From: a phage
Sequence record: PQ724392.1
Reading direction: 5' to 3' (one strand)
Length of the DNA: 64,000 nucleotides
A model generated the notes under the pieces. It saw nothing but the letters and a program-made list of their open reading frames with translations. It did no database searches and was not told where the DNA came from. Positions 3,392 through 50,090 of this stretch are shown piece by piece. The translations under genes and the position numbers were made by a program. Within the stretch, counting starts at the first letter, position 1. Every line of letters starts with the position of its first letter.

Positions 3392-6300
3392 ATGGCCGAT
3401 ATTTTAAAACCAGCATTCAGAGCAACATCCGGTCTCGATGCTGCTGGTGAGAAAGTCATTAATGTCGCAAAAGCTGATTACTCAGTTTTATCAGACGGCG
3501 TTAACGTAGGTTTCTTTATAGAAGAAAACACAGTTCAACAATATGATGCAACACGCGGATACAAAAAGAACTTTGCAGTTATTAATGATAACCGTATTTG
3601 GGTTGCTCAACGTGATATTCCGGCACCAGCTGGAGCATTTACCCCTCAGTATTGGTTAGCAACTCGTACTGACCCTAAATGGGAAACTGTTGCATCTCCA
3701 ACTCGTCAGCTTAGCTCCGGGGAATTTATCGCAGTCGACTCAGCTGCAAGCTTTACCACATTTACCTTACCTCCGAACCCGACTGATGGTGATACCATCG
3801 TTATTAAAGATATCGGCGGTAATACCGGTTATAATGAAATTAAAATCCAGTCAAGCAACGTGCCTGGTCAAGGTAACCAAAAGATTGTTCGCTTTGGTAA
3901 TCAGTATTCAGAAGTTTTAATTACCAAACCATTCTCTTATAACATGCTTATCTTTTCAAACCGCTTATGGCAATTTTGGGAAGCAGGTAACGAAGAACGT
4001 GGTATCAGAGTAGAACCGTCGACCGGACGTTTCCATGCACAAGCTGGCGACTTTATTATGCGTCGTTATACAACTGGTGCACCGATTACTTTCATTCTTC
4101 CTAAGTATGCAAACCAGGGTGATATTGTCAAATCTGTTGATATCGATGGCATGGGGCCAACGTTCCACCTGATGGTTGAAACCTTTGACACCAGTTCCAG
4201 TCTTGGGAAAGCTGGCCAGCATCAAATGGAATTCCGTACCACAGGTGATGGTTTCTTCGTTTATAATGCTACCGAAAAACTCTGGTATGTTTGGGACGGT
4301 GATTTTAAAACTCGTCTTCGCGTTATTCGCGACAGCGTTAAACTTTTACCAAACGAAAGTGTCATTGTATTTGGCGAAGATAACTCAACTCCGGCAACGA
4401 TTAATATCGATTTGCCAACTAATGTTTTGCAAGGCGATATTGTTAAGATTGCGCTGAACTATCTCCGTAAATCGCAGACTGTTAATATAAGAGCTGCTGT
4501 TGGCGATAAGATTGCAACTGACATTAAATTGCTGCAATTCCCTAAACGTTCCGAGTATCCACCAGATACAACTTGGGTGATGGTTGATTCATTGACCTTT
4601 AATGGCAACATCAGTTATACTCCGGTTATTGAATTATCATATGCAGAAGATGCAGTGTCTGGAACAAGTTATTGGGTTGTCGCTCAGAACGTCCCGACTG
4701 TCGAACGAGTTGACTCATTAAATGATTCCACGCGTACACGTCTTGGTGTTATTGCTCTGGCAAACCAGACTCAGGCAAACGTTGACCATGAAAATAACCC
4801 AGAAAAAGAACTCGCAATTACCCCTCAGACTTTAGCCAACCGTGTTGCTAAAGAGAACCAACGAGGCATTGCCAGAATCGCAACGACTGCCCAAGTAAAT
4901 CAGAACAGTGATTTTGCATTTGTTGATGATGTAATTATTTCTCCGAAAAAACTCAATGAACGTACGGCAACAGAAACGAGACGTGGACTCGCAGAACTCG
5001 CCACACAGCAAGAAACCAATGCGGGTGTAGATGATACCACAATTATAACTCCAAAGAAACTGCAAGCTCGCCAGGGCTCAGAATCGCTATCTGGTATTGT
5101 AACTTACGTTTCAACGACTGGTGCAACTCCTGCTGCTTCGCGTGAATTAAATGGTACAAACGTTTATAATAAAAATACGGTTAATCTGGTTGTTTCTCCG
5201 AAAGCTCTTGACCAGTACAAAGCTACTTACACTCAGCAAGGCGCGGTTATTCTTGCGGTTGAAAGTGAAGTAATCGCTGGTACTTCACAATCTGGCTGGG
5301 CAAACGCAGTCGTTACTCCAGAAATGTTGCATCGCAAAACTGCTCTTGATTCCCGTATCGGTTTAATCGAGATTGCTACTCAGGTTGAAACAGATGCAGG
5401 AACCGATTATACCAGAGCTGTGACTCCTAAAACGTTAAATGACCGTAAAGCATCAGAAACGTTAACCGGCATAGCCGAGATTGCTACGCAATCAGAATTT
5501 GATACTGGAACTGATGATACTCGTATCTCAACTCCATTAAAAATTAAAAATAGATTTAATAATACTGCTCGTACTTCTGTTAATGCATTAAGTGGTTTAG
5601 TAGAAACAGGGACGCTCTGGGACCATTATAGCCTGAATATTCTTGAAGCAAATGAGACTCAACGTGGCACAGCAAGATTAGCAACTCAGGGTGAAGTCAA
5701 TACTGGCACTGACGATAAAACAATCGTTACTCCGCTTAAATTGATGTCGAAAAAAGCCACTGAAAACGCCGAAGGTATTGTTCGCATTGCGACAAACGCA
5801 GAAGCAACAGCAGGCACATCAAAAGTCTTGGCCATTAGTCCGTCTGCGCTGAAATATATTGTCCAAACAGAAACAACTTGGGAAGCATCTGAAACACTGC
5901 GTGGATTTGTTCGTTTATCTTCCGGTGCAGCTACTTCGGCCGCAACTACAACGACGGGCGCGGGATTTACATATGCAAATGGTGTGTATACCCCGGACCC
6001 AAGTAAACTGGTTAGCTATGCGAAATCTGGATATGCAGTTTCGCCTTACGAATTAAACCGCGTATTGCAAAACTTCTTACCAATAAATGCGATGGCTGTT
6101 AATGCTGAAAAACTGGATAACCTCGATTCAACCCAGTTTATTCGTCGTGATATTGCTCAGACTGTTGAAGGTGTATTAACCCTTACTAAGCAGACAAATA
6201 TCTCTGCTCCGGTTGTATCGACGAGCACTGCGGTGTTTACTGATGTAACGGCTGGTACTTCGACGTTCGGAACTGTGAATGTTGTTAATGGAACTAACAA

Positions 6301-7348
6301 GTGGAAAATCACTGCTCCTTCCACCGGAACGACAATGACTATTGGTGATACGACTAACGTATTGACATTAAACACCGCCTCGGGTAATGCTGCTGTATTG
6401 AACAACCTCAGCGCCGGAAACGATGTTCAAGCCAAAAATAATTACGTTCTAAATGGTCGTACTATTGCAACTACAACGGGCGAAGCTTCTGGTGCAACTT
6501 TGTCTCTGGGTGATAACTCACAGAATTTAGTGCTCAAAACTCTTGATGCTGGCAATATCATAGCAAATGGTGGCGGTGCATTTAAAGTTCTGACCGAGAA
6601 AAACGCAGTAGAAATTGTTGATAGAAACTTTGTTAACCAGGCTGGTGATACAATGTCTGGTGTACTCCGTGTAAATGCTCCGGTCCGTGTATTTGGTACA
6701 AAACCGAGTCTTATTGCACAAGCTCCGACTGCTGATACTGTTGGCTTCTGGTCTGTCGATATCAATGATGAACCGACTTATAGCCAGTTCCCTGGTTATT
6801 GGACAATGAAGTTAAAACGTCAGGTAAACATTGATACGGTTCAAACTAAACCTGCTGGGGTAACTGATGAAGTTTGGAATGCTTCTGGTTGGTTAACTGA
6901 AAACGGAACTTTTGCCTCGCCCGCTATTCGTTATCGTACTGATGATGGTACACTCGGTGATGAAGTATTAGGTAGCTCCGGACAGAAACTGCGCGGAACC
7001 TGGTTTGACTATTCAGTTCGCGACAAACAAATTAAATATCCTGGTACATTGACTCAGTTTGGTAATACGCTGGATTCGTGCTATCAAGATTGGGTTTGTT
7101 ACCCAACTGAATTGAACGGTGGTACTATTCGTTATACTCGTACGTGGCAGAAAAATAAATCTGCATGGACGACTTTCGCAATGGTTTACACCGCGGATAA
7201 CCCTCCGTCTGCAGAGGATGTTGGCGCATTACCGGCTGACAACACAACGATGGGGAACTTAACCATTCTTGATTGGTTGCGTATCGGTAACGTGCGTATC
7301 ATCCCAGACCCGACCACTAAATCCGTTAAGTTTGAATGGATTGAATAA
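3392..7348 (+). CDS. 34: long tail fibre proximal subunit gp34
   Basis: 1318-aa ORF on plus strand, first gene of the 34-38 fibre operon; internal ~30-aa repeats (ATQ.E.N.GTDDT.I.TPK.L) typical of T-even fibre shafts; late promoter TATAAATA upstream. Confidence 0.9.
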   Translation: MADILKPAFRATSGLDAAGEKVINVAKADYSVLSDGVNVGFFIEENTVQQYDATRGYKKNFAVINDNRIWVAQRDIPAPAGAFTPQYWLATRTDPKWETVASPTRQLSSGEFIAVDSAASFTTFTLPPNPTDGDTIVIKDIGGNTGYNEIKIQSSNVPGQGNQKIVRFGNQYSEVLITKPFSYNMLIFSNRLWQFWEAGNEERGIRVEPSTGRFHAQAGDFIMRRYTTGAPITFILPKYANQGDIVKSVDIDGMGPTFHLMVETFDTSSSLGKAGQHQMEFRTTGDGFFVYNATEKLWYVWDGDFKTRLRVIRDSVKLLPNESVIVFGEDNSTPATINIDLPTNVLQGDIVKIALNYLRKSQTVNIRAAVGDKIATDIKLLQFPKRSEYPPDTTWVMVDSLTFNGNISYTPVIELSYAEDAVSGTSYWVVAQNVPTVERVDSLNDSTRTRLGVIALANQTQANVDHENNPEKELAITPQTLANRVAKENQRGIARIATTAQVNQNSDFAFVDDVIISPKKLNERTATETRRGLAELATQQETNAGVDDTTIITPKKLQARQGSESLSGIVTYVSTTGATPAASRELNGTNVYNKNTVNLVVSPKALDQYKATYTQQGAVILAVESEVIAGTSQSGWANAVVTPEMLHRKTALDSRIGLIEIATQVETDAGTDYTRAVTPKTLNDRKASETLTGIAEIATQSEFDTGTDDTRISTPLKIKNRFNNTARTSVNALSGLVETGTLWDHYSLNILEANETQRGTARLATQGEVNTGTDDKTIVTPLKLMSKKATENAEGIVRIATNAEATAGTSKVLAISPSALKYIVQTETTWEASETLRGFVRLSSGAATSAATTTTGAGFTYANGVYTPDPSKLVSYAKSGYAVSPYELNRVLQNFLPINAMAVNAEKLDNLDSTQFIRRDIAQTVEGVLTLTKQTNISAPVVSTSTAVFTDVTAGTSTFGTVNVVNGTNKWKITAPSTGTTMTIGDTTNVLTLNTASGNAAVLNNLSAGNDVQAKNNYVLNGRTIATTTGEASGATLSLGDNSQNLVLKTLDAGNIIANGGGAFKVLTEKNAVEIVDRNFVNQAGDTMSGVLRVNAPVRVFGTKPSLIAQAPTADTVGFWSVDINDEPTYSQFPGYWTMKLKRQVNIDTVQTKPAGVTDEVWNASGWLTENGTFASPAIRYRTDDGTLGDEVLGSSGQKLRGTWFDYSVRDKQIKYPGTLTQFGNTLDSCYQDWVCYPTELNGGTIRYTRTWQKNKSAWTTFAMVYTADNPPSAEDVGALPADNTTMGNLTILDWLRIGNVRIIPDPTTKSVKFEWIE
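4810..5930 (+). repeat. coding repeats within gp34 (about nine degenerate ~30-aa units)
   Basis: recurring peptide pattern G.A..ATQ.E.NAGTDDT.I.TPKKL in the translated ORF; boundaries approximate. Confidence 0.5.
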
Positions 7349-41831: not shown

Positions 41832-42125
41832 TTATTCACCTGTAACCCATTGAACAATTTTGCTATTGTCAAATGAAGCATCGCAATACAGAACATAGTT
41901 ATACTGCATAACGCCACCAGAAGTCAATTGGTCAGATACTTCTTTAACCATATCAGGGCGGTCACGTTTAGTTATGTTCATGATATCAGCATAAATCTGG
42001 TGTTCAACATCAGTCTGGTCAGCAGTCATAGACCACTCACAAAGGTCTTTATCAAGTCCAGCGGTGACAGGTGCTGTGCCACAAGATGCTACGGCAAAAA
42101 TTGCTGCGATAATTAACTTTTTCAT
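41832..42125 (-). CDS. sp: spackle-like secreted protein (superinfection exclusion / lysozyme inhibitor)
   Basis: 97-aa ORF with N-terminal signal peptide MKKLIIAAIFAVASCG; size and position between 61 and 41 as for T4 sp (61.3). Confidence 0.6.
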   Translation of the reverse strand: MKKLIIAAIFAVASCGTAPVTAGLDKDLCEWSMTADQTDVEHQIYADIMNITKRDRPDMVKEVSDQLTSGGVMQYNYVLYCDASFDNSKIVQWVTGE

Positions 42126-43127: not shown

Positions 43128-44567
43128 TTAAAATTTCATTTGAGCAGCAAGGTCGTCCAGGTCGCTCCTGTTGACCCTGGTTTGTCGATTCATTTCAGCC
43201 TGGCGATTCATCTCACCGGTGGCTTCTTTAACCGTAGGACCTTGTTTAGGAGCTGAATCATCATCAACCTCATACCAGCGCTGATTACCTTTCTTAACAC
43301 CCATCTTGAATTTATTATAGTAGTTCTTATCACCATAACGAGACTTAAGCTGTTTGATTAACTGCAGCCCCATTTGAGCGAATTCTTCGGTCTCAACAAC
43401 ACCCAACATAAAGTCAGCTGTATGAGCAATACCAAAGGATTCTGCGATATCAGCCATATCAATCTCAGCTGCAACGTTCGCGCCCCTGGTTGTCTGCGCT
43501 GCAGTCCACAGGACCACATTTTTCTCGACTGCCAGACCACGAAGTTCTTCTGCAACCATCTTAATCAGACCGTAACTATTTTCGGTAAACGTTTTCAGTC
43601 TTGAGCTCGCACAGATTGCCAGGTAGTCAACAATAATCACATCCGGCACAAACCCTTGCTTCAGCTTGTACTCGTTCAGTAATGCACGGAAGGTGTCCGC
43701 ATGAGCACCGCCAGTTGGATATTGTTTTATTTTCAGAGTCCCAAGAGTCCCGGAAGCACGCCATTTTTCCATCTTAGCTTTATATTCTGCCCATGATATA
43801 TGACCTTCATCAATATCATCCAGAGACACATCCAGCAAGTTGGCATCAATACGTTTGGCACATACTTCTTCGGCCATTTCCATGCTTATATAAAGCACGT
43901 TATGACCAGTCTGAAGATAGTCAGCGGCTAACGAACAAAGTCCTAGAGATTTCCCGACGTTGGTCCCAGCCAGTAAAACGTTTTCTGTACCATACTCAAC
44001 TCCACCCTTCGTGATTTTATTCAGGATGTTAATGCGGAACGGAACCTTTTTCGATTTGTTCAGATAAGTCTGGAATCGAGCTTCGTAATCGTTTAACCAG
44101 TCATGGCCCAGTGCAGAGTCAAAACAGATGGACAATGCATCACGCATGATGTCAGGGATAGCACCGATATCCGGGATTCGTTTATCACGTTTATCTTTCG
44201 GAAGTTCGGCATTACTCTGGATTTCGATAATCCTGGATGTGGCATTGAACATCGCAGACTTCTGTACATACTTCTCGGTTTCTCTGACCAACCATTCCTG
44301 GTCTTCTGGAGTATCGGCCAGGACTCCTAAGAGTTTCTTTGTGCCTTCGTATTCAACTTCAGAAAGGTCAGAACTGTCGAGCGCGATATCAAGTGCAGTC
44401 TTAGTTGGCACCGCCTGATATTCTTTTACGTGTTCGTTAATCGTATTAAAAAGGGTCTTCGCTGGACCCTTTTCAAAATATGTGCTATTCAGATATGGCC
44501 AGACTTTAACAAAATATTCCTTGTTAAAGAGTAGCTGGGATAAAATAGTTTCTACCACTTCCACCAC
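43128..44567 (-). CDS. 41: replicative DNA helicase gp41 (DnaB family)
   Basis: 479-aa ORF; Walker A AGTNVGKS, Walker B IIVDYL, arginine-finger region; length as T4 gp41. Confidence 0.9.
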   Translation of the reverse strand: MVEVVETILSQLLFNKEYFVKVWPYLNSTYFEKGPAKTLFNTINEHVKEYQAVPTKTALDIALDSSDLSEVEYEGTKKLLGVLADTPEDQEWLVRETEKYVQKSAMFNATSRIIEIQSNAELPKDKRDKRIPDIGAIPDIMRDALSICFDSALGHDWLNDYEARFQTYLNKSKKVPFRINILNKITKGGVEYGTENVLLAGTNVGKSLGLCSLAADYLQTGHNVLYISMEMAEEVCAKRIDANLLDVSLDDIDEGHISWAEYKAKMEKWRASGTLGTLKIKQYPTGGAHADTFRALLNEYKLKQGFVPDVIIVDYLAICASSRLKTFTENSYGLIKMVAEELRGLAVEKNVVLWTAAQTTRGANVAAEIDMADIAESFGIAHTADFMLGVVETEEFAQMGLQLIKQLKSRYGDKNYYNKFKMGVKKGNQRWYEVDDDSAPKQGPTVKEATGEMNRQAEMNRQTRVNRSDLDDLAAQMKF

Positions 44568-44896
44568 CTCTTTTTCATTTTAATCTTATCAATTTCATCT
44601 TGTATTTGCATTGTAACACACTTTTCTACATGCACTGCAAGCTCCGCTTTGCGGTCTTCAGAAGGGGTGCCGAAATCAACTGAAACTTTTCCCGATGGTT
44701 CAATTTTAATTCCGGTTACGTACACAATGTGATTGGACCCATCAGGGAGTGATAACAGAATTTCCTGCCGTACAGTTCCCATGGATTGCCGGATAATCTC
44801 CAAACTTTTTTCGTAGTAAGGTACAGAAGGAGCCTTAGCTCCCTCCGCATCTTTCTCGAAATTATCTAAATCAGATAAATCGATATCATTCATCAA
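44552..44896 (-). CDS. 40: head vertex assembly chaperone gp40 (by position)
   Basis: 114-aa ORF between uvsX and 41 as in T4; C-terminal basic/hydrophobic tail KMKKRWWKW; sequence identity not verifiable. Confidence 0.55.
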   Translation of the reverse strand: MMNDIDLSDLDNFEKDAEGAKAPSVPYYEKSLEIIRQSMGTVRQEILLSLPDGSNHIVYVTGIKIEPSGKVSVDFGTPSEDRKAELAVHVEKCVTMQIQDEIDKIKMKKRWWKW

Positions 44897-46064
44897 GGTC
44901 TTCCATCATATCTAAATCGTTTTCGATATCTGCCGCAGATGGTTTTGCCTTACCTTCAGGGGCAGAGTATTTTTCAACCTTGGAGGCAATAAGCGCATCA
45001 ACTTCGGCGTCAACAACAGCATTGCTATCGATTGCACCCAGCTGGTAATGGCGTTTGATTGCATCACGGAAAGGTTCGTGCTTAAACAATGGGCCCCAGA
45101 ATTCGGTGCAGTTAGTATCTTTTGCACGCCATGATTTTTCTTCGCGGACCATTTCACCGGTCTCAACATCAAGATATTCACGGTTATACCAACCAACTTT
45201 CGGTTTCACCACAAATCCGATTTCCATTGCCATATCAAGCAGGCCAGAATACGGGTCAATACCCCCATCGAATTTTACATCAATGAAGAATTTACTTTTC
45301 TCTTTGACCATACGAGATTTTTCGGCGTTCAGAACAAATTGGAAACCTTCAAGTTCTTTACCAGTTTCTTTAATCTGGCGTTTGCCGATAATGAATACGG
45401 TGTCCGCAGAATACATAACACCTGTACCACCGGTCATAACGGTTTTGCTATACATCTCAATCGTCTCGATTGTATGGTTAACCGCGACACAAGGAATATC
45501 CTTGATACTAAAATATGGGGTAACAATACGGAACAGAGATTTCAGGGATTTAGCACGAGTCATATCGCCAACGACTTTTTCGTTCATCGCATCTTCTGTT
45601 TCTTTTTTCGACGCCATGTTACCGATTGAGTCAATAAAGATAATGACTTTTTCACCGCGCTCAATTGCTTCAAGCTGGTTAACCATATCAACTTTCAATT
45701 GTTCAACCGACTGGATTGGTGTGTGGATAACACGCTCCGGGTCTACTTTCATTGCACGCAGATAGGCTTCTGTGATACCAAATTCTGAATCATAGAACAA
45801 ACAGATTGCTTCGGGGTATTTGTTCATATATGCAGAGACCATCGTTAAACCCATATTGGATTTAAAGTGTTTTGACGGACCAGCAAAAATAGTCAAACCT
45901 GACTGCATACCACCATCTAGTGCACCGCTGATTGCAATGTTCAGCATCGGGATTTTTGTACGAACTACATCTTTATCATTAAAAAACTTGGACTTAGTAA
46001 GAGTCGCAGTCATTTTGGATGTAGAAGCTTTAATCAAACGGGATTTCAAATCTGCAATAGACAT
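44886..46064 (-). CDS. uvsX: recombinase UvsX (RecA/Rad51 family)
   Basis: 392-aa ORF; Walker A-like GPSKHFKS, Walker B IIFIDSIG; N-terminal ADLKSRLIKAST; length as T4 UvsX. Confidence 0.9.
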   Translation of the reverse strand: MSIADLKSRLIKASTSKMTATLTKSKFFNDKDVVRTKIPMLNIAISGALDGGMQSGLTIFAGPSKHFKSNMGLTMVSAYMNKYPEAICLFYDSEFGITEAYLRAMKVDPERVIHTPIQSVEQLKVDMVNQLEAIERGEKVIIFIDSIGNMASKKETEDAMNEKVVGDMTRAKSLKSLFRIVTPYFSIKDIPCVAVNHTIETIEMYSKTVMTGGTGVMYSADTVFIIGKRQIKETGKELEGFQFVLNAEKSRMVKEKSKFFIDVKFDGGIDPYSGLLDMAMEIGFVVKPKVGWYNREYLDVETGEMVREEKSWRAKDTNCTEFWGPLFKHEPFRDAIKRHYQLGAIDSNAVVDAEVDALIASKVEKYSAPEGKAKPSAADIENDLDMMEDLDE

Positions 46065-46406
46065 TCATTTTTTCCATAGGCACCATTATATTTTTCTCAC
46101 AGGTTTAAGATAGGATAATTATATCACTGTATTTTTAGAGCAATTAACGATTGAATCCACGATTAATTGCACGTTCAACAATCTTCCGGGTCTGACGTTT
46201 GTCCCACCAGTACATAAAACCAATACCAAATGCAGACAACAACCACAGACTAATCAATAGCATACCAATCATAATATTTTTCTCGCAGTTCAGAGTAATT
46301 TAGTAAACGTTTCCACGTTTCCAGTTTTCTTCAGCCAAATGCTTATTACGCTTTTCTAATAGCAGCAAACCAATTACTGTTCCAACAATCAGAAGTAATA
46401 ATAGCA

Positions 46407-46910
46407 TCAGTTAATACCTTGGCGTGCTTTCTCTTTAGCTACACATTTATTAATATAGCTCAGACGGTTTTGAGCAGAACGCTGATACATATCGCGATAC
46501 TCATTGGCTTTTGGAGAACCCGTCTCCGCTGCCTGATAAGCTTCTGCACGCATGATGTTTATCTGCATATTGATATATGACATGCAGACCTGTGAAATCT
46601 GGTTAACAGTATCCAGGTCATTTTGGCGCTTGGTTTCTGCTTCCAGTTTAGCAATGATTTCGTCATGCTTCGCAGCTTGTTCGCGTTTGTACTCAATTTC
46701 ACGTTGAGCATATTTCGCGCAGTTATTTCCACATTGATTGTTGTCGCGTTTGTAGATAAGTCCAGTACCACCTTTGAAATCAAAGGAACCATTATGCACC
46801 TGACGGTCTGCAGCAATTCGCGCTTTACCAATCTCATTGGCATTAACAACATCACCCTGGTAAGCACAACCAGATAGCAGCATAACAGCTGCGATAGCTA
46901 ACTTTTTCAT
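46407..46910 (-). CDS. putative lipoprotein with coiled-coil region
   Basis: 167 aa from ATG with GAGGAAAA SD; MKKLAIAAVMLLSGC = signal peptide plus lipobox; lies where T4 has beta-gt/42. Confidence 0.5.
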   Translation of the reverse strand: MKKLAIAAVMLLSGCAYQGDVVNANEIGKARIAADRQVHNGSFDFKGGTGLIYKRDNNQCGNNCAKYAQREIEYKREQAAKHDEIIAKLEAETKRQNDLDTVNQISQVCMSYINMQINIMRAEAYQAAETGSPKANEYRDMYQRSAQNRLSYINKCVAKEKARQGIN

Positions 46911-47060
46911 TGTATTTTCCTCAATTAAAACATTCATAACGGGCTTGGAGTCCCAAAAATATCCAACCCAAAATTAAAGTTGGAATCATATGCGGAGTCA
47001 TTATTGCCCAATAGATTGACATACTAAAAAATGCAATCAGTACAATAATTGTAATTATCT

Positions 47061-47303
47061 TCATTTGGTTTCCTTGATGATAATTAACTGTGCGTTTGAT
47101 TTACGTTCAGCAACGAGTGCCCAAATAAACGCAATAAACCACCCAACCATTGTCCAACCTAACAGAAGGTTAACAAAGAAGATTCCGCAATTACTTTTGG
47201 TTCCACGCAGTAGCGCGATAATCCACGGTAGAAAATAGGTCAGTGCAGCCAGGAAGAAAGAACCAGCACCAAGAACAACAGTACCTGCAATTAATGTTTC
47301 CAT
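47061..47303 (-). CDS. imm: superinfection immunity protein Imm-like
   Basis: 80-aa two-TM protein; YFLPWIIALLRG....FFVNLLLGWTMVGWFIAFIWALV resembles the Imm-family motif as recalled; adjacent to gene 43 as in T4. Confidence 0.6.
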   Translation of the reverse strand: METLIAGTVVLGAGSFFLAALTYFLPWIIALLRGTKSNCGIFFVNLLLGWTMVGWFIAFIWALVAERKSNAQLIIIKETK

Positions 47304-47343
47304 TTTAATATCCTTAAGTTAATCATCAGTAATTGATGGAGTA

Positions 47344-47372
47344 ATCATACGGCAATCCTTTGCCGTTGTAAA
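47344..47372 (-). promoter_or_regulatory. early-type promoter upstream of imm
   Basis: minus strand GTTTACA - 17 nt - TATGAT; overlaps a hairpin (ACGGCA/TGCCGT) after the gene 43 stop. Confidence 0.45.
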
Positions 47373-47375
47373 CAC

Positions 47376-50090
47376 TTAAAAGTCAAACATATCAAAAAGA
47401 GATGCTTTTTTCTCGTAATCAACCTTAGCTGCTTCAGAGAACCCTGTCAATGGCTTAACAAAAGTCTTCTGGAACAGCGTGTTGTAGTCCATCCACTGCA
47501 AGACTTGGTCACGAATTTCAATCGGGAGTTCAATCCCTGATGGCCATGCAATCACGGTTTCGCCAAACGGGTTACCAACTTTAAGAGGAAGCACATACAC
47601 CTTTTCCCCTTCCATGATTTGTGGAACAGTCTTCAGCCCTTTAGTTGCACGCATATATGCAAGCACACCTTTGATATGAGCCGGGCACTTAAATCCAGGG
47701 AAACCGCCCTCATTATATTTCTGGATGTTGTTAACCGATGATACACCCGCGATGGTCATGTAGTTAAGCTCATTAAATTCCTTATTGAATTCCTTGAAGT
47801 ATGTCTGCAGAGATTCTTCACCTTCTTGCAGCATACGGCGGATACATTCTTTCAGAGCTTTCTGACATGCTTTTGGTGTACTCGACTTTTGAGTTTCCAG
47901 GCCCATGATTTTCAGTTTCGGAACAGCATATCGTGTGCCTTCCATATCGTACACGTTCAGAGCATAACGCTTCTTCGCCGTCCAGAATCCACCAACACCT
48001 TTAGAACCAAGTGGAGGACATGCAATCGCTTCACGGTCCATAAACATAAGGTGCTGTTTGTTGTTCATGTATTCAGCCAGCTCACGGAAAGCTTTATCGA
48101 TTGCTGGTTCCAGACGGTCTTTCGCGAACTTGTCCATGAAGTCAACCAGGTGGTTTGTATCGCGGAATTTAGATTCACCACCAACCTTTTTAATCAGGTT
48201 ATCGCACTGGATATAAATGGAGTCAGTATCACCATAGAATACATATGTTTCACCACTTGTACCGCAAACACTATCAAAATATTCGTTAACTTTACGCTCA
48301 ATCCACTGCAATGCAAGTTGTCCGAAAGATGTAATCGCGGTTGCATTTCGCAGGTCAAAGTAACGGAACCAGATATTACCCAGAGCGCCATAACAACTGT
48401 TGATAAGCAGTTTACGGTTAATCTGTGCGGTCATGCCTGCAACTTCTTCCATTTGTGCTTTGTACAACATACCATTCAGAACTGTTTGATTCAGACCATG
48501 CAAGGTTGTTTTCATATTGTCATCAAAGTCATAACGATAATCAACTTCAGGCTCGGTTGTACCAGTTCCTGGATTACGCAGGGCTTCCTTAATCAGTTCA
48601 CCATTACGTTGAGCCGCAAGCATATAACCTTTATGCTCTTTACGCTGATTAAACACCTTGGTGACTTCTGTCGGAATAATACCCGCAACATCTTTAAAAT
48701 ACATCATACCGTTTGGAGCACAACTAAATGTATCAGATGGACGGTCAGCAGTTCCTGCAATGTATTCATACATCGGCGCTGGTGTAAATGACCCGGCAAT
48801 CGTTTCTGGACTAATGTTAATCTGTCGGATGATGCTCGGATACAGAGATGTTAAATCACAGCTCATAACATATTTGTATGCGTTCGGAATCGGTTCCTTA
48901 ACAAATGCACCCGGGAACGATTGACGAACATGCGATTTGGTTTCCGGAATGACTTTATTTTGAGTCTTCAGGCTGTTAAAGATAATCGCATCCCAAGTTT
49001 TGATTGGGCTGAATACAGACTGAATCTGCATTTTTGCGTAATAACCCATTGACTGGCTAAGGTTAATAAACTGACGCTTACGGTCAATCTGTACAACACG
49101 ATAAACATCGATGATGTTATAAGAAATATACCGTTGGTGATTTGATTCGCGCAGTTTAGAAATCGGGCCATCATACGGGAGTTTACCAACACCCAGCTCA
49201 GATTCCGCAACATAATCCAACGAATAAGATGGCTGGTTTGTGAAGCTGAACTTTTTATACAGGTCCAGATAATCCAGAACAGAGATACCCAGAATCTGAA
49301 TGATTTCTTGTTCTTCACCGAATCCGTTGTTAATGACCTTAACTTTTGTACGACGATGTGGACTCAGACGTTTTGCCGTAGCTTCACCAAACACATTTTT
49401 AAGGCGGTTGTAGATATATGGAATATCAAACTTCTCGATGTTCCAACCAGTTAACATAACCGGAGTTTTCTCGTTCCAGAATACCAAATACTGCTGGAGC
49501 ATTTCTTCTTCTGAATCGAAAGCCATATAAACAATTTTTTCCAGGATTTCTTCAGGGACTTCATCGCCGCCATCTTCTTGCAGCTTAGCAGCAATATCAA
49601 TAGACCATTGCTCCACAGTGGCGTATGGTGAGCTCAAAAGGTCAAAGACATAGAATTTATCGTCTACCGAATCATAGTGCGTCAGGGCATCAATAGGGTG
49701 ACGTGCTTCAGACGGCTCAGGGAACCCATCAGGAGATGTCACCTCGATATCGAAGTTAGCCACACGGATTTTACTTGAATCGTATTTGATTTCGTGCGGG
49801 TAACGGTCGGACAAGTATGCGAGTTTAAAGTCATCCATACCCATAGCTTCGAGACCCATTTCATTCATTCGCTTCATCCACTGGGATGCATCACGCATGG
49901 AATCGAATTCTTTTTTCACACAACCTTTATTATAGATGTCTGTATACTTTGCGGCCTGGTCTTCGCGGGCGTGCATAAACAAGCATGGAGCATAAGGGAT
50001 TTCACGAACACGTTCATGACCGTTCTTGTCAATGTATCGTTCGAGCAGATTGTCACCGATTTGTTCGATAGTTAAATAAAATTCTTGCAT
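47376..50090 (-). CDS. 43: DNA polymerase gp43 (family B)
   Basis: 904-aa ORF; exonuclease motifs (FDIEV), polymerase motifs (SLYPSII, KLLINSCYGALG, YGDTDS); length as T4 gp43. Confidence 0.95.
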   Translation of the reverse strand: MQEFYLTIEQIGDNLLERYIDKNGHERVREIPYAPCLFMHAREDQAAKYTDIYNKGCVKKEFDSMRDASQWMKRMNEMGLEAMGMDDFKLAYLSDRYPHEIKYDSSKIRVANFDIEVTSPDGFPEPSEARHPIDALTHYDSVDDKFYVFDLLSSPYATVEQWSIDIAAKLQEDGGDEVPEEILEKIVYMAFDSEEEMLQQYLVFWNEKTPVMLTGWNIEKFDIPYIYNRLKNVFGEATAKRLSPHRRTKVKVINNGFGEEQEIIQILGISVLDYLDLYKKFSFTNQPSYSLDYVAESELGVGKLPYDGPISKLRESNHQRYISYNIIDVYRVVQIDRKRQFINLSQSMGYYAKMQIQSVFSPIKTWDAIIFNSLKTQNKVIPETKSHVRQSFPGAFVKEPIPNAYKYVMSCDLTSLYPSIIRQINISPETIAGSFTPAPMYEYIAGTADRPSDTFSCAPNGMMYFKDVAGIIPTEVTKVFNQRKEHKGYMLAAQRNGELIKEALRNPGTGTTEPEVDYRYDFDDNMKTTLHGLNQTVLNGMLYKAQMEEVAGMTAQINRKLLINSCYGALGNIWFRYFDLRNATAITSFGQLALQWIERKVNEYFDSVCGTSGETYVFYGDTDSIYIQCDNLIKKVGGESKFRDTNHLVDFMDKFAKDRLEPAIDKAFRELAEYMNNKQHLMFMDREAIACPPLGSKGVGGFWTAKKRYALNVYDMEGTRYAVPKLKIMGLETQKSSTPKACQKALKECIRRMLQEGEESLQTYFKEFNKEFNELNYMTIAGVSSVNNIQKYNEGGFPGFKCPAHIKGVLAYMRATKGLKTVPQIMEGEKVYVLPLKVGNPFGETVIAWPSGIELPIEIRDQVLQWMDYNTLFQKTFVKPLTGFSEAAKVDYEKKASLFDMFDF

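What the first reader, a model, noticed from the sequence alone, without database searches (positions are those of the whole stretch)
46407..47303. Lipoprotein plus Imm-like membrane protein module in place of beta-gt/42: candidate superinfection-exclusion cluster
ORF 46407-46910 has a signal peptide and lipobox (MKKLAIAAVMLLSGC) followed by a coiled-coil-rich domain. It lies beside an 80-aa two-TM Imm-like protein (47061-47303), and tiny hydrophobic ORFs (about 35-47 aa) fill the flanks at 46130-46400 and 46925-47060. Envelope-targeted proteins clustered with imm suggest a multi-component system blocking DNA injection by superinfecting phages; the lipoprotein component is not part of the T4 locus as I recall it.
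Basis: partly seen in the sequence, partly recalled or inferred. Interest (0 to 1): 0.55.

Follow-up and report, generated by a model that had tools for sequence, protein, structure and literature searches.

The report
T4-type imm locus with lipoprotein
This is the ordinary superinfection-immunity corner of a T4-like coliphage (Imm, a 47-residue membrane peptide and an outer-membrane lipoprotein); T4 has the same three genes, so it is not a new module, although nobody knows what the lipoprotein does.

Summary
The ORFs are real and as described, all on the minus strand. The window is a Gaprivervirus (VR7/SP18/RZ group, 97-98% identical to published genomes).

- **Imm (47061-47303)** is the orthologue of T4 Imm (Pfam Imm_superinfect, E 7.6e-18).
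- **The 47-aa ORF (46921-47064)** matches T4's unannotated 49-aa ORF between imm and gene 42 ("42.1").
- **The lipoprotein (46407-46910)** belongs to phrog_1754, the same family as T4 imm.1. That gene is a lipoprotein lying between gene 43 and imm.

What differs here is gene order, and that 42, beta-gt and segA are absent.

A functional link between the lipoprotein and Imm is plausible. They are adjacent in five lineages, and in RB69-type phages imm.1 and imm sit together next to spackle. The link is not obligate: Enterobacter phage Q7622 has the lipoprotein but no Imm, and many phages have Imm without it.

No structural or sequence analogue with a known function was found, and no published work on imm.1 was found.

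Verdict: a known locus containing a conserved lipoprotein of unknown function. An exclusion role is a reasonable hypothesis but untested.

The parts
47344..47372 (-). Promoter-like site (TTTACA, 17 nt spacer, TATGAT) in the 72-nt gap between the gene 43 stop and the imm start. A 7-bp hairpin (47349-47366) lies in its spacer.
   Evidence: 10 of 12 consensus matches. Only 2 such sites were found in the region against 5.4 expected by chance, so this is weak evidence. The hairpin was read from the sequence.
47061..47303 (-). imm: 80-aa inner-membrane superinfection immunity protein with two hydrophobic segments; orthologue of T4 Imm.
   Evidence: Pfam PF14373 at 64.6 bits against a cut-off of 27.9, E 7.6e-18. 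phrog_1039 E 4.7e-30. 50.6% identity to T4 Imm over 83 aa. Hydropathy.
46921..47064 (-). 47-aa membrane peptide, equivalent to T4 '42.1' and RB69 ORF054c. Its start overlaps the imm stop (ATGA).
   Evidence: phrog_3610 E 1.2e-26. Found in 574 phage records across Tevenvirinae genera. T4 has a homologous 49-aa ORF at L008 6228-6377, also overlapping the imm stop. VR7 annotates it as 42.1.
46407..46910 (-). 167-aa lipoprotein (lipobox LSGC, Ala at +2, so outer-membrane sorting is predicted). The mature part is a short tether, a helix, a beta-hairpin carrying GTGLIY...QCGNNC, then a long helix and a C-terminal three-helix bundle with conserved Cys109 and Cys156. It is the Imm.1-like member of phrog_1754.
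   Evidence: phrog_1754 E 7.8e-47, full length; T4 imm.1 hits the same family at 6.1e-43. Alignments A2, A3 and A4. AlphaFold2 mean pLDDT 81.3. dN/dS 0-0.04.
46300..46407 (-). 35-aa ORF with one N-terminal hydrophobic segment and a basic tail. Its start overlaps the lipoprotein stop (ATGA). Restricted to Gaprivervirus.
   Evidence: tblastn finds it in only 12 records, all Gaprivervirus. Annotated as hypothetical in phage RZ. Coding status is plausible but unproven.
46144..46272 (-). 42-aa ORF with one N-terminal hydrophobic segment and a basic tail. Restricted to Gaprivervirus.
   Evidence: Found in 17 records at 95-100% identity, all Gaprivervirus. No PHROG or Pfam match.
41832..42125 (-). 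spackle (sp): 97-aa periplasmic inhibitor of the gp5 tail lysozyme, the second known T-even exclusion gene. It lies 4.3 kb away and is not part of the cluster, but it belongs to the same functional repertoire.
   Evidence: Local HMM E 5.9e-48. 70% identity to RB69 Sp over 97 aa. ORF listed.

Best explanation
The region is the Gaprivervirus version of the conserved T-even 'imm locus' just downstream of DNA polymerase gene 43. The order here is imm, then the 47-aa 42.1 peptide, then an Imm.1-like lipoprotein, then two genus-specific tiny membrane ORFs, apparently one tightly packed early transcription unit.

Shown here:
- Imm is orthologous to T4 Imm.
- The 47-aa ORF is homologous to T4's ORF between imm and gene 42.
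- The lipoprotein is a conserved, selected gene confined to T4-like phages. It is in the same PHROG family as T4/RB69 imm.1, and in other genera it occupies the imm.1 slot directly after gene 43.

Inferred:
- Imm sits in the inner membrane and blocks DNA entry from superinfecting T-even phages, as in T4.
- The lipoprotein is exported, lipidated and sent by the Lol pathway to the inner face of the outer membrane, because there is no Asp at +2.
- From there its roughly 100 Å helical stalk and disulfide-stabilised bundle project into the periplasm.

Most likely role of the lipoprotein (about 0.3-0.35): an accessory, non-essential contributor to the same envelope-level protection against secondary adsorption, meaning exclusion, or resistance to damage by ghosts or lysis from without. 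It would act from the outer-membrane side, independently of and additively with Imm and Spackle, rather than as an obligate Imm partner.
For: Identity of the locus:
- Megablast gives 97-98% identity to Gaprivervirus genomes with the same gene calls.
- Imm hits Pfam and PHROG strongly.
- The T4 locus has the lipoprotein imm.1 and a 49-aa ORF flanking imm.
- Both lipoproteins match phrog_1754 full length.
- They share a post-lipobox motif, QG(D/P)VVNxx(D/E)(I/V)GK (hhalign on mature parts, E 8.5e-4).
- The Cys pair aligns.

Linkage to exclusion genes:
- Lipoprotein and imm are adjacent or one tiny ORF apart in Tequatrovirus, Mosigvirus, Dhakavirus, Gaprivervirus and Serratia phage 92A1.
- In RB69 and MM02 the imm.1-imm pair lies at a different genome site from T4's, still adjacent and directly beside spackle.

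Real and functional gene: dN/dS 0-0.04. The overlapping stop and start codons suggest translational coupling.

Envelope targeting: the lipobox is conserved across 35 sequences.
Against: - There are no functional data on any member of the family. Literature searches for imm.1 and DUF5481 found nothing.
- The link is not obligate. Q7622 has the lipoprotein and 42.1 but no Imm. Kanagawavirus, PM2 and EcS1 loci have no imm within 10 kb. Imm occurs without the lipoprotein in Klebsiella JD18-type, Salmonella siphophages and G7C-type phages.
- Adjacency could simply reflect a shared early-gene region downstream of gene 43 where small membrane genes accumulate.
- Homology of the mature domain to T4 Imm.1 is not significant once the signal peptide is removed (hhalign probability 6-24%). 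Pfam DUF5481 does not hit the window protein.
- The protein is highly conserved (>=95% in 502 Tequatrovirus records; dN/dS about 0.03 here). That is unlike a factor in a phage-versus-phage arms race.
- No structural analogue was found.
Confidence: 0.4

Rival explanations
1. The lipoprotein has an envelope function unrelated to superinfection exclusion, for example modulating lysis timing or lysis inhibition, envelope stress, or periplasmic architecture during infection. It sits near imm only because the interval downstream of gene 43 is an early-expressed, recombination-prone region that collects small membrane-protein genes.
For: - The lipoprotein persists without Imm in Q7622 and in Kanagawavirus, Winklervirus and PM2 loci, where it neighbours sugar-nucleotide genes instead.
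- The interval 43-uvsX varies greatly in content between genera.
- Conservation is strong and housekeeping-like.
- The VR25 allele has been swapped by recombination: dS 1.24 against 0.16 for neighbouring uvsX.
Against: - In RB69-type phages the imm.1-imm pair lies at a different genome site from T4's, still adjacent, and sits directly beside spackle. That is hard to explain by neighbourhood alone.
- Adjacency is kept in five lineages despite rearranged order.
Confidence: 0.35
2. It is a receptor-masking lipoprotein of the T5 Llp or phi80/N15 Cor type. It would bind the phage's outer-membrane receptor from the periplasmic side, blocking adsorption by superinfecting phage and sparing progeny from inactivation on cell debris.
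For: - It is a predicted outer-membrane lipoprotein made by a lytic phage.
- The precedent of Llp-FhuA exists (PMC9586334, listed).
- There is a weak PHROG hit to Cor (E 0.024).
Against: - The Cor hit covers only the signal peptide (residues 1-17).
- No structural match to Llp or any other solved structure was found.
- The mature protein is about 150 aa and helical. From memory, Llp and Cor have mature parts of about 60 aa.
- Tequatrovirus Imm.1 is >=95% identical in 502 records, although T2, T4 and T6 use different receptors (established knowledge). It therefore does not track receptor choice.
Confidence: 0.1
3. It is a periplasmic inhibitor of the incoming tail lysozyme (Spackle-like, or a PliC/MliC-like lipoprotein inhibitor).
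For: - Location in the periplasm.
- Association with exclusion genes.
- Lipoprotein lysozyme inhibitors such as MliC exist (cited in PMC7677548).
Against: - The phage already has a bona fide spackle at 41832-42125.
- The lipoprotein has no sequence match to phrog_1586 and no match to any solved chain by sequence.
Confidence: 0.05
4. It is a lysis protein (outer-membrane spanin subunit) or a virion or structural protein.
For: - o-Spanins are outer-membrane lipoproteins.
- Two GenBank records label the homologue 'capsid and scaffold protein'.
Against: - It lies in the early replication-gene region on the early strand, with no adjacent or embedded i-spanin.
- Related T4-like genomes carry their Rz/Rz1-type spanin pair elsewhere (Q7622 at 141.2-141.8 kb).
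- The 'capsid and scaffold' labels are isolated automatic annotations. Most records say hypothetical, and one says lipoprotein.
Confidence: 0.03

Closest known systems
T4 imm locus (43 - imm.1 - imm - 42.1 - 42 - beta-gt - segA - uvsX)
   Same: - Same position between gene 43 and uvsX, and same strand.
- Same three small envelope genes: Imm (50.6% identity), the 47/49-aa peptide overlapping the imm stop, and a lipoprotein of phrog_1754.

   Different: - The order here is imm - 42.1 - lipoprotein, whereas T4 has imm.1 - imm - 42.1.
- Genes 42, beta-gt and segA are absent.
- Two extra tiny membrane ORFs are present.
- The lipoprotein is the long subtype (167 aa, with a GTGLVY/CxxxC hairpin) that Pfam DUF5481 does not recognise.
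T4/RB69 Imm.1 (Pfam DUF5481, PF17578); function unknown
   Same: - Lipobox.
- Conserved post-lipobox motif.
- Helical domain with two conserved Cys.
- Adjacency to imm.
- Never found together with the long subtype in one genome.
- The long subtype occupies the slot directly after gene 43 in 92A1, Kanagawavirus and Winklervirus.

   Different: - About 25% shorter and lacking the beta-hairpin/CxxxC module.
- Mature-domain profile comparison is not significant.
- Only weak colinear HMM hits are seen.
RB69-type cluster imm.1 - imm - sp
   Same: It contains Imm, an Imm.1-family lipoprotein and Spackle. All three are also encoded in this window.
   Different: In RB69 the three genes are contiguous between 61.2 and 61.4. 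Here sp is 4.3 kb away from the imm cluster, which stays next to gene 43.
T5 Llp and phi80/N15 Cor superinfection-exclusion lipoproteins
   Same: A phage-encoded lipoprotein with a possible exclusion role.
   Different: - No sequence similarity beyond the signal peptide, and no significant match to any solved structure.
- Much larger and helical.
- Does not co-vary with receptor specificity.

Membership tests
T4 Imm (Pfam PF14373 Imm_superinfect) | Match to the Imm_superinfect domain above Pfam's gathering score | tested here: met
   64.6 bits against a cut-off of 27.9, E 7.6e-18. phrog_1039 E 4.7e-30.
T4 Imm (Pfam PF14373 Imm_superinfect) | Protein of about 80 aa with two hydrophobic membrane segments | tested here: met
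   80 aa. Kyte-Doolittle hydrophobic stretches at 3-32 and 46-64.
T4 Imm (Pfam PF14373 Imm_superinfect) | Synteny with T-even imm (near gene 43, followed by the 42.1 peptide) | tested here: met
T4 Imm (Pfam PF14373 Imm_superinfect) | Blocks DNA entry of superinfecting T-even phage | not testable with these tools
   Needs an exclusion or DNA-ejection assay.
Imm.1-like lipoproteins (phrog_1754; T4/RB69 imm.1) | Signal peptide with a lipobox | tested here: met
   The lipobox is LSGC. Gly14 and Cys15 are invariant or nearly so in 35 sequences. T4 has LAGC and RB69 has LTGC.
Imm.1-like lipoproteins (phrog_1754; T4/RB69 imm.1) | Full-length match to the PHROG profile that also holds T4 imm.1 | tested here: met
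   Window protein 7.8e-47, residues 1-161 on profile positions 2-147 of 148. T4 imm.1 6.1e-43.
Imm.1-like lipoproteins (phrog_1754; T4/RB69 imm.1) | Match to Pfam DUF5481 (the curated model of T4 Imm.1) | tested here: not met
   No DUF5481 hit at E <= 1 for the window protein or for intermediates. T4 imm.1 hits at 5.2e-72. The window protein is therefore outside the Pfam family as currently drawn.
Imm.1-like lipoproteins (phrog_1754; T4/RB69 imm.1) | Homology of the mature domain, excluding the signal peptide | tested here: inconclusive
Imm.1-like lipoproteins (phrog_1754; T4/RB69 imm.1) | Genomic association with imm and/or the slot directly downstream of gene 43 | tested here: met
Llp/Cor receptor-blocking exclusion lipoproteins | Sequence or fold similarity to Llp or Cor | tested here: not met
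Llp/Cor receptor-blocking exclusion lipoproteins | Specificity that tracks the phage's receptor | tested here: not met
   Imm.1 is >=95% identical across 502 Tequatrovirus records, although those phages use different receptors (established knowledge). This was tested on the T4 subtype only.
Spackle (gp61.3) lysozyme inhibitors | Match to the Spackle family | tested here: not met
   The lipoprotein does not hit phrog_1586. A separate true sp gene lies at 41832-42125.
Known anti-phage defence systems (PADLOC) | Match to any PADLOC model | tested here: not met
   No hits for any of the five proteins.

The most novel reading that the evidence does not exclude
Imm.1-family outer-membrane lipoproteins could be an unrecognised third component of T-even superinfection exclusion. 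In this picture, Spackle disarms the incoming tail lysozyme in the periplasm and Imm closes the inner-membrane entry route. The lipoprotein, hanging from the outer membrane on a roughly 100 Å helical stalk, would intercept or misdirect the penetrating tail tip, or protect the wall and outer membrane from repeated punctures. The contiguous imm.1-imm-sp block of RB69 would then be a complete three-layer exclusion island, and the cluster in this window a rearranged copy of two of its layers.
Probability: 0.3. Interest if true: 0.55.

Novelty: new member of a known kind. Interest (0 to 1): 0.27.

Why it matters
As a sequence feature it matters little. The same genes are already deposited in more than 30 near-identical phage genomes, and T4 itself has the same trio.

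The useful outcome is a sharper question. T-even phages carry a conserved, strongly selected lipoprotein, predicted to be anchored in the outer membrane, that travels with imm and in RB69 also sits beside spackle. I found no publication on its function in the library searched.

If it contributes to exclusion or to resistance against secondary adsorption, it would add an outer-membrane layer to a system described for 50 years as having two genes. The test needs only simple knock-outs in T4.

Tried and rejected
- **Inflated homology score.** hhalign of the family against full-length T4 Imm.1 gave 96.5%. I first took this as proof of homology. Repeating it on mature parts dropped the probability to 6-24%, so the score was driven mostly by the signal peptide and lipobox. 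The claim is downgraded to 'same PHROG, probable distant homologue or positional equivalent'.
- **Bridging via intermediates.** A Pfam scan of intermediate family members to link them to DUF5481 found no hits.
- **SIS-domain proteins.** I suspected the 209-aa 'arabinose-5-P isomerase' next to the lipoprotein in CHI14, Q7622 and PEi20 might be a long Imm. They are genuine SIS-domain proteins.
- **Other family libraries.** NCBIfam gave only signal-peptide-level hits and PADLOC gave none.
- **Repeat motif.** P0037, a 1550-aa protein with nine repeats of GGGTGLTYTPxxNYCGSDSF, matched the hairpin motif at E 8.5e-6. I judged this short-motif convergence with a cadherin/VCBS-like repeat.
- **Locus retrieval.** The search for related loci failed on the very diverse alignment A3. 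A2 worked.
- **Literature.** Searches for imm.1 were swamped by journal abbreviations or returned nothing, and DUF5481 returned nothing. The T4 genome review (PMC150520) is not held.
- **Gene 42 elsewhere.** tblastn with T4 gp42 did not settle whether Gapriverviruses carry a dCMP hydroxymethylase elsewhere in the genome. Neither T4 gp42 nor the RB69 ORF045-055 genes hit the window, apart from the 054c peptide.

Full report
**What the window is.** The interval 46000-47400 is 97-98% identical to published Gaprivervirus genomes (TH40, vB_EcoM_RZ, VR7, SP18 and others). These are T4-like coliphages of the Tevenvirinae. All genes here are on the minus strand, in this order: gp41 helicase (43128-44567), gp40, uvsX (44886-46064), the cluster in question, then DNA polymerase gp43 (47376-50090).

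**Checking the observation.**
- The lipoprotein starts at the MKKL methionine (46910). It has a GAGGA ribosome-binding site 7 nt upstream and the lipobox LSGC with Ala at +2.
- The Imm-like ORF is 80 aa with two hydrophobic segments.
- The 'tiny hydrophobic ORFs' are three in number: 46921-47064 (47 aa), 46300-47407 corrected to 46300-46407 (35 aa) and 46144-46272 (42 aa).
- The genes are tightly packed. imm and the 47-aa ORF overlap by ATGA, there are 10 nt between the 47-aa ORF and the lipoprotein, and the lipoprotein stop overlaps the orf35 start as ATGA. This suggests one translationally coupled unit.
- A promoter-like site lies in the 72-nt gap after gene 43. It is weak evidence, because such sites are no more frequent here than in shuffled sequence.
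- The lipoprotein is under strong purifying selection: dN/dS is 0-0.04, for example 0 nonsynonymous against 12 synonymous differences from RZ, comparable to uvsX.

**What the parts are.**
- *Imm.* It hits Pfam Imm_superinfect well above threshold (E 7.6e-18) and phrog_1039. It is 50.6% identical to T4 Imm over its full length.
- *The 47-aa ORF.* It is phrog_3610 and occurs in 574 phage records across Tevenvirinae genera. VR7 annotates it as 42.1, and RB69 as ORF054c, 'similar to T4 42-imm intercistronic region'. In the T4 RefSeq record I found the unannotated homologue, a 49-aa ORF that also overlaps the imm stop by ATGA.
- *The lipoprotein.* It matches phrog_1754 full-length (E 7.8e-47).

**The lipoprotein family.** It is small and confined to T4-like phages. 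It appears in 122 phage records (Gaprivervirus, Dhakavirus, Kanagawavirus, Winklervirus, PM2, EcS1). It forms 21 clusters among 5.8 billion proteins and 24 representatives among 1.84 billion. Conserved features are the lipobox, a post-lipobox motif, a GTGLVYxRxxNQCGxNC hairpin, and two further cysteines, C109 and C156.

**The comparison with T4.** This changes the reading of the finding. The T4 order is 43 - imm.1 - imm - (42.1) - 42 - beta-gt - segA - uvsX. T4 imm.1 is itself a lipoprotein (MKIAILVIALGLAGC...). It hits the same phrog_1754 full-length (6.1e-43) and is Pfam DUF5481. What really differs is the gene order (imm - 42.1 - lipoprotein), the absence of 42, beta-gt and segA from the interval and from the whole window, and two extra tiny ORFs found only in Gapriverviruses (17 and 12 records).

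**How solid is the homology to T4 Imm.1?** Less solid than it first looked.
- A profile comparison with full-length sequences gave 96.5% probability.
- After removing signal peptides, only the 13-residue motif after the lipid-modified Cys aligns (QGDVVNANEIGK against QGPVVNQSDVGK; E 8.5e-4, probability 6-24%).
- Pfam DUF5481 does not hit the window protein or intermediates.
- An HMM of the mature long subtype gives weak but colinear hits to DUF5481 members (E 3e-5 to 5e-3 per comparison), and the two C-terminal cysteines align.
- Context supports equivalence. In Serratia phage 92A1 the order is 43 - lipoprotein - imm, exactly as in T4. In Kanagawavirus and Winklervirus the long-type lipoprotein occupies the slot directly after gene 43. 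The two subtypes were never seen in the same genome.
- I therefore call it a probable distant homologue and clear positional equivalent of Imm.1, not a proven member of DUF5481.

**Is the lipoprotein functionally tied to Imm?**

*For.* The two genes are adjacent, or separated only by the 47-aa ORF, in Tequatrovirus, Mosigvirus, Dhakavirus, Gaprivervirus and 92A1. In RB69 and MM02 the imm.1-imm pair is not near gene 43 at all. It lies, still adjacent and in the same order, directly next to spackle (sp - imm - imm.1), while the 42.1 peptide stays next to gene 43. A pair that stays together at a different genome site and sits beside the other known exclusion gene is good guilt-by-association evidence. 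Spackle and Imm are the two recognised T4 exclusion factors (PMC7677548). This window also encodes a true Spackle at 41832-42125.

*Against.* I assembled the whole 174-kb genome of Enterobacter phage Q7622. It contains the lipoprotein (6e-52) and 42.1 (1e-30) but no Imm (best E 0.6 with filters off). Six further Kanagawavirus, PM2 and EcS1 loci have no imm within 10 kb. Imm occurs in many phages that lack the lipoprotein (Klebsiella JD18-type, Salmonella siphophages, G7C-type). From memory of Lu & Henning 1989, cloned T4 imm alone excludes. The two are therefore not obligate partners.

**Structure and mechanism.** AlphaFold2 with 35 sequences (mean pLDDT 81.3) predicts:
- a disordered tether (residues 16-25);
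- a short helix;
- a beta-hairpin (41-55) carrying the GTGLIY/CxxxC motif;
- a 69-residue helix (62-130), about 100 Å long if straight;
- two helices (135-164) that pack back to form a confident three-helix bundle, where C109 and C156 could form a disulfide.

With no Asp at +2, the Lol rule predicts outer-membrane anchoring. This is an inference.

My best guess (about 0.3-0.35) is an accessory role in protecting the already infected cell against secondary adsorption, acting from the outer-membrane side. An unrelated envelope function is about equally likely.
- A receptor-masking role like T5 Llp is disfavoured. The Cor hit covers only the signal peptide, no significant structural match was found, the protein is much larger, and Imm.1 is >=95% identical in 502 Tequatrovirus records although T2, T4 and T6 use different receptors.
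- A Spackle-like inhibitor is disfavoured because a true sp gene is present.
- A spanin or structural role is disfavoured by location and context.

**Literature.** I found no paper on imm.1 or DUF5481 in the held library. A long review of T-even lysis inhibition discusses Imm and Sp but never imm.1.

**Verdict.** The lipoprotein is a new (long-subtype) member of a known family of unknown function. Interest is modest. The one worthwhile lead is the untested idea that Imm.1-family lipoproteins are a third layer of T-even superinfection exclusion.

Noticed in passing
window 41832-42125 (-): Spackle homologue (97 aa, 70% identical to RB69 Sp). Its signal peptide contains VASC, which also fits a lipobox pattern, as does ALASC in T4 Sp as I recall its sequence. 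T4 Sp is described as a soluble periplasmic protein.
   Followed up: partly
window 47349-47366: A perfect 7-bp hairpin (ACGGCAA-TCCT-TTGCCGT on the + strand) lies 10 nt downstream of the gene 43 stop, inside the spacer of the promoter-like site upstream of imm. It could be an RNA 3'-end or stability element or a regulatory site.
   Followed up: no
L008 (T4 NC_000866) 6228-6377 (-) and 6637-7014 (-): The T4 RefSeq record does not annotate the conserved 49-aa ORF between imm and gene 42. It labels imm.1 'iduronate sulfatase', which looks like a spurious automatic name for a 125-aa lipoprotein (DUF5481).
   Followed up: partly
L013 (phage VR25) 9959-10501, compared with window 46407-46910: The VR25 lipoprotein allele is only 77% identical (dS 1.24), while the neighbouring uvsX differs by dS 0.16. 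The lipoprotein (and imm) allele has been exchanged by recombination within the genus.
   Followed up: partly
L025+L006+L026+L028+L027 (Enterobacter phage Q7622, whole genome): This Kanagawavirus has Spackle, the Imm.1-like lipoprotein and the 42.1 peptide, but no detectable Imm anywhere in the genome.
   Followed up: yes
L004, L005-L007, L029 (JS98, CHI14, Q7622, PEi20, RB69): interval between gene 43 and uvsX: In these genera the interval holds sugar-nucleotide genes: arabinose-5-P isomerase (SIS domain), a roughly 560-aa nucleotidyltransferase, phosphoheptose isomerase, and a dCMP-hydroxymethylase-like gene. These are presumably for DNA hypermodification. None of them, nor T4 gp42 or beta-gt, has a match in this 64-kb window, so how or whether this phage modifies its cytosines was not resolved.
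   Followed up: partly
P0037 (1550-aa metagenomic protein): It has nine tandem repeats of ...GGGTGLTYTPxxNYCGSDSFTY..., which resemble the lipoprotein's GGTGLIYKRDNNQCGNNC hairpin (E 8.5e-6, summed over the repeats). This is probably convergence of a short beta-hairpin motif with a cadherin/VCBS-like repeat.
   Followed up: partly
window 46962-46984 (-): A terminator-like stem-loop with a T-run lies inside the 47-aa ORF. About one such site is expected by chance in this region, so it is probably not meaningful.
   Followed up: no
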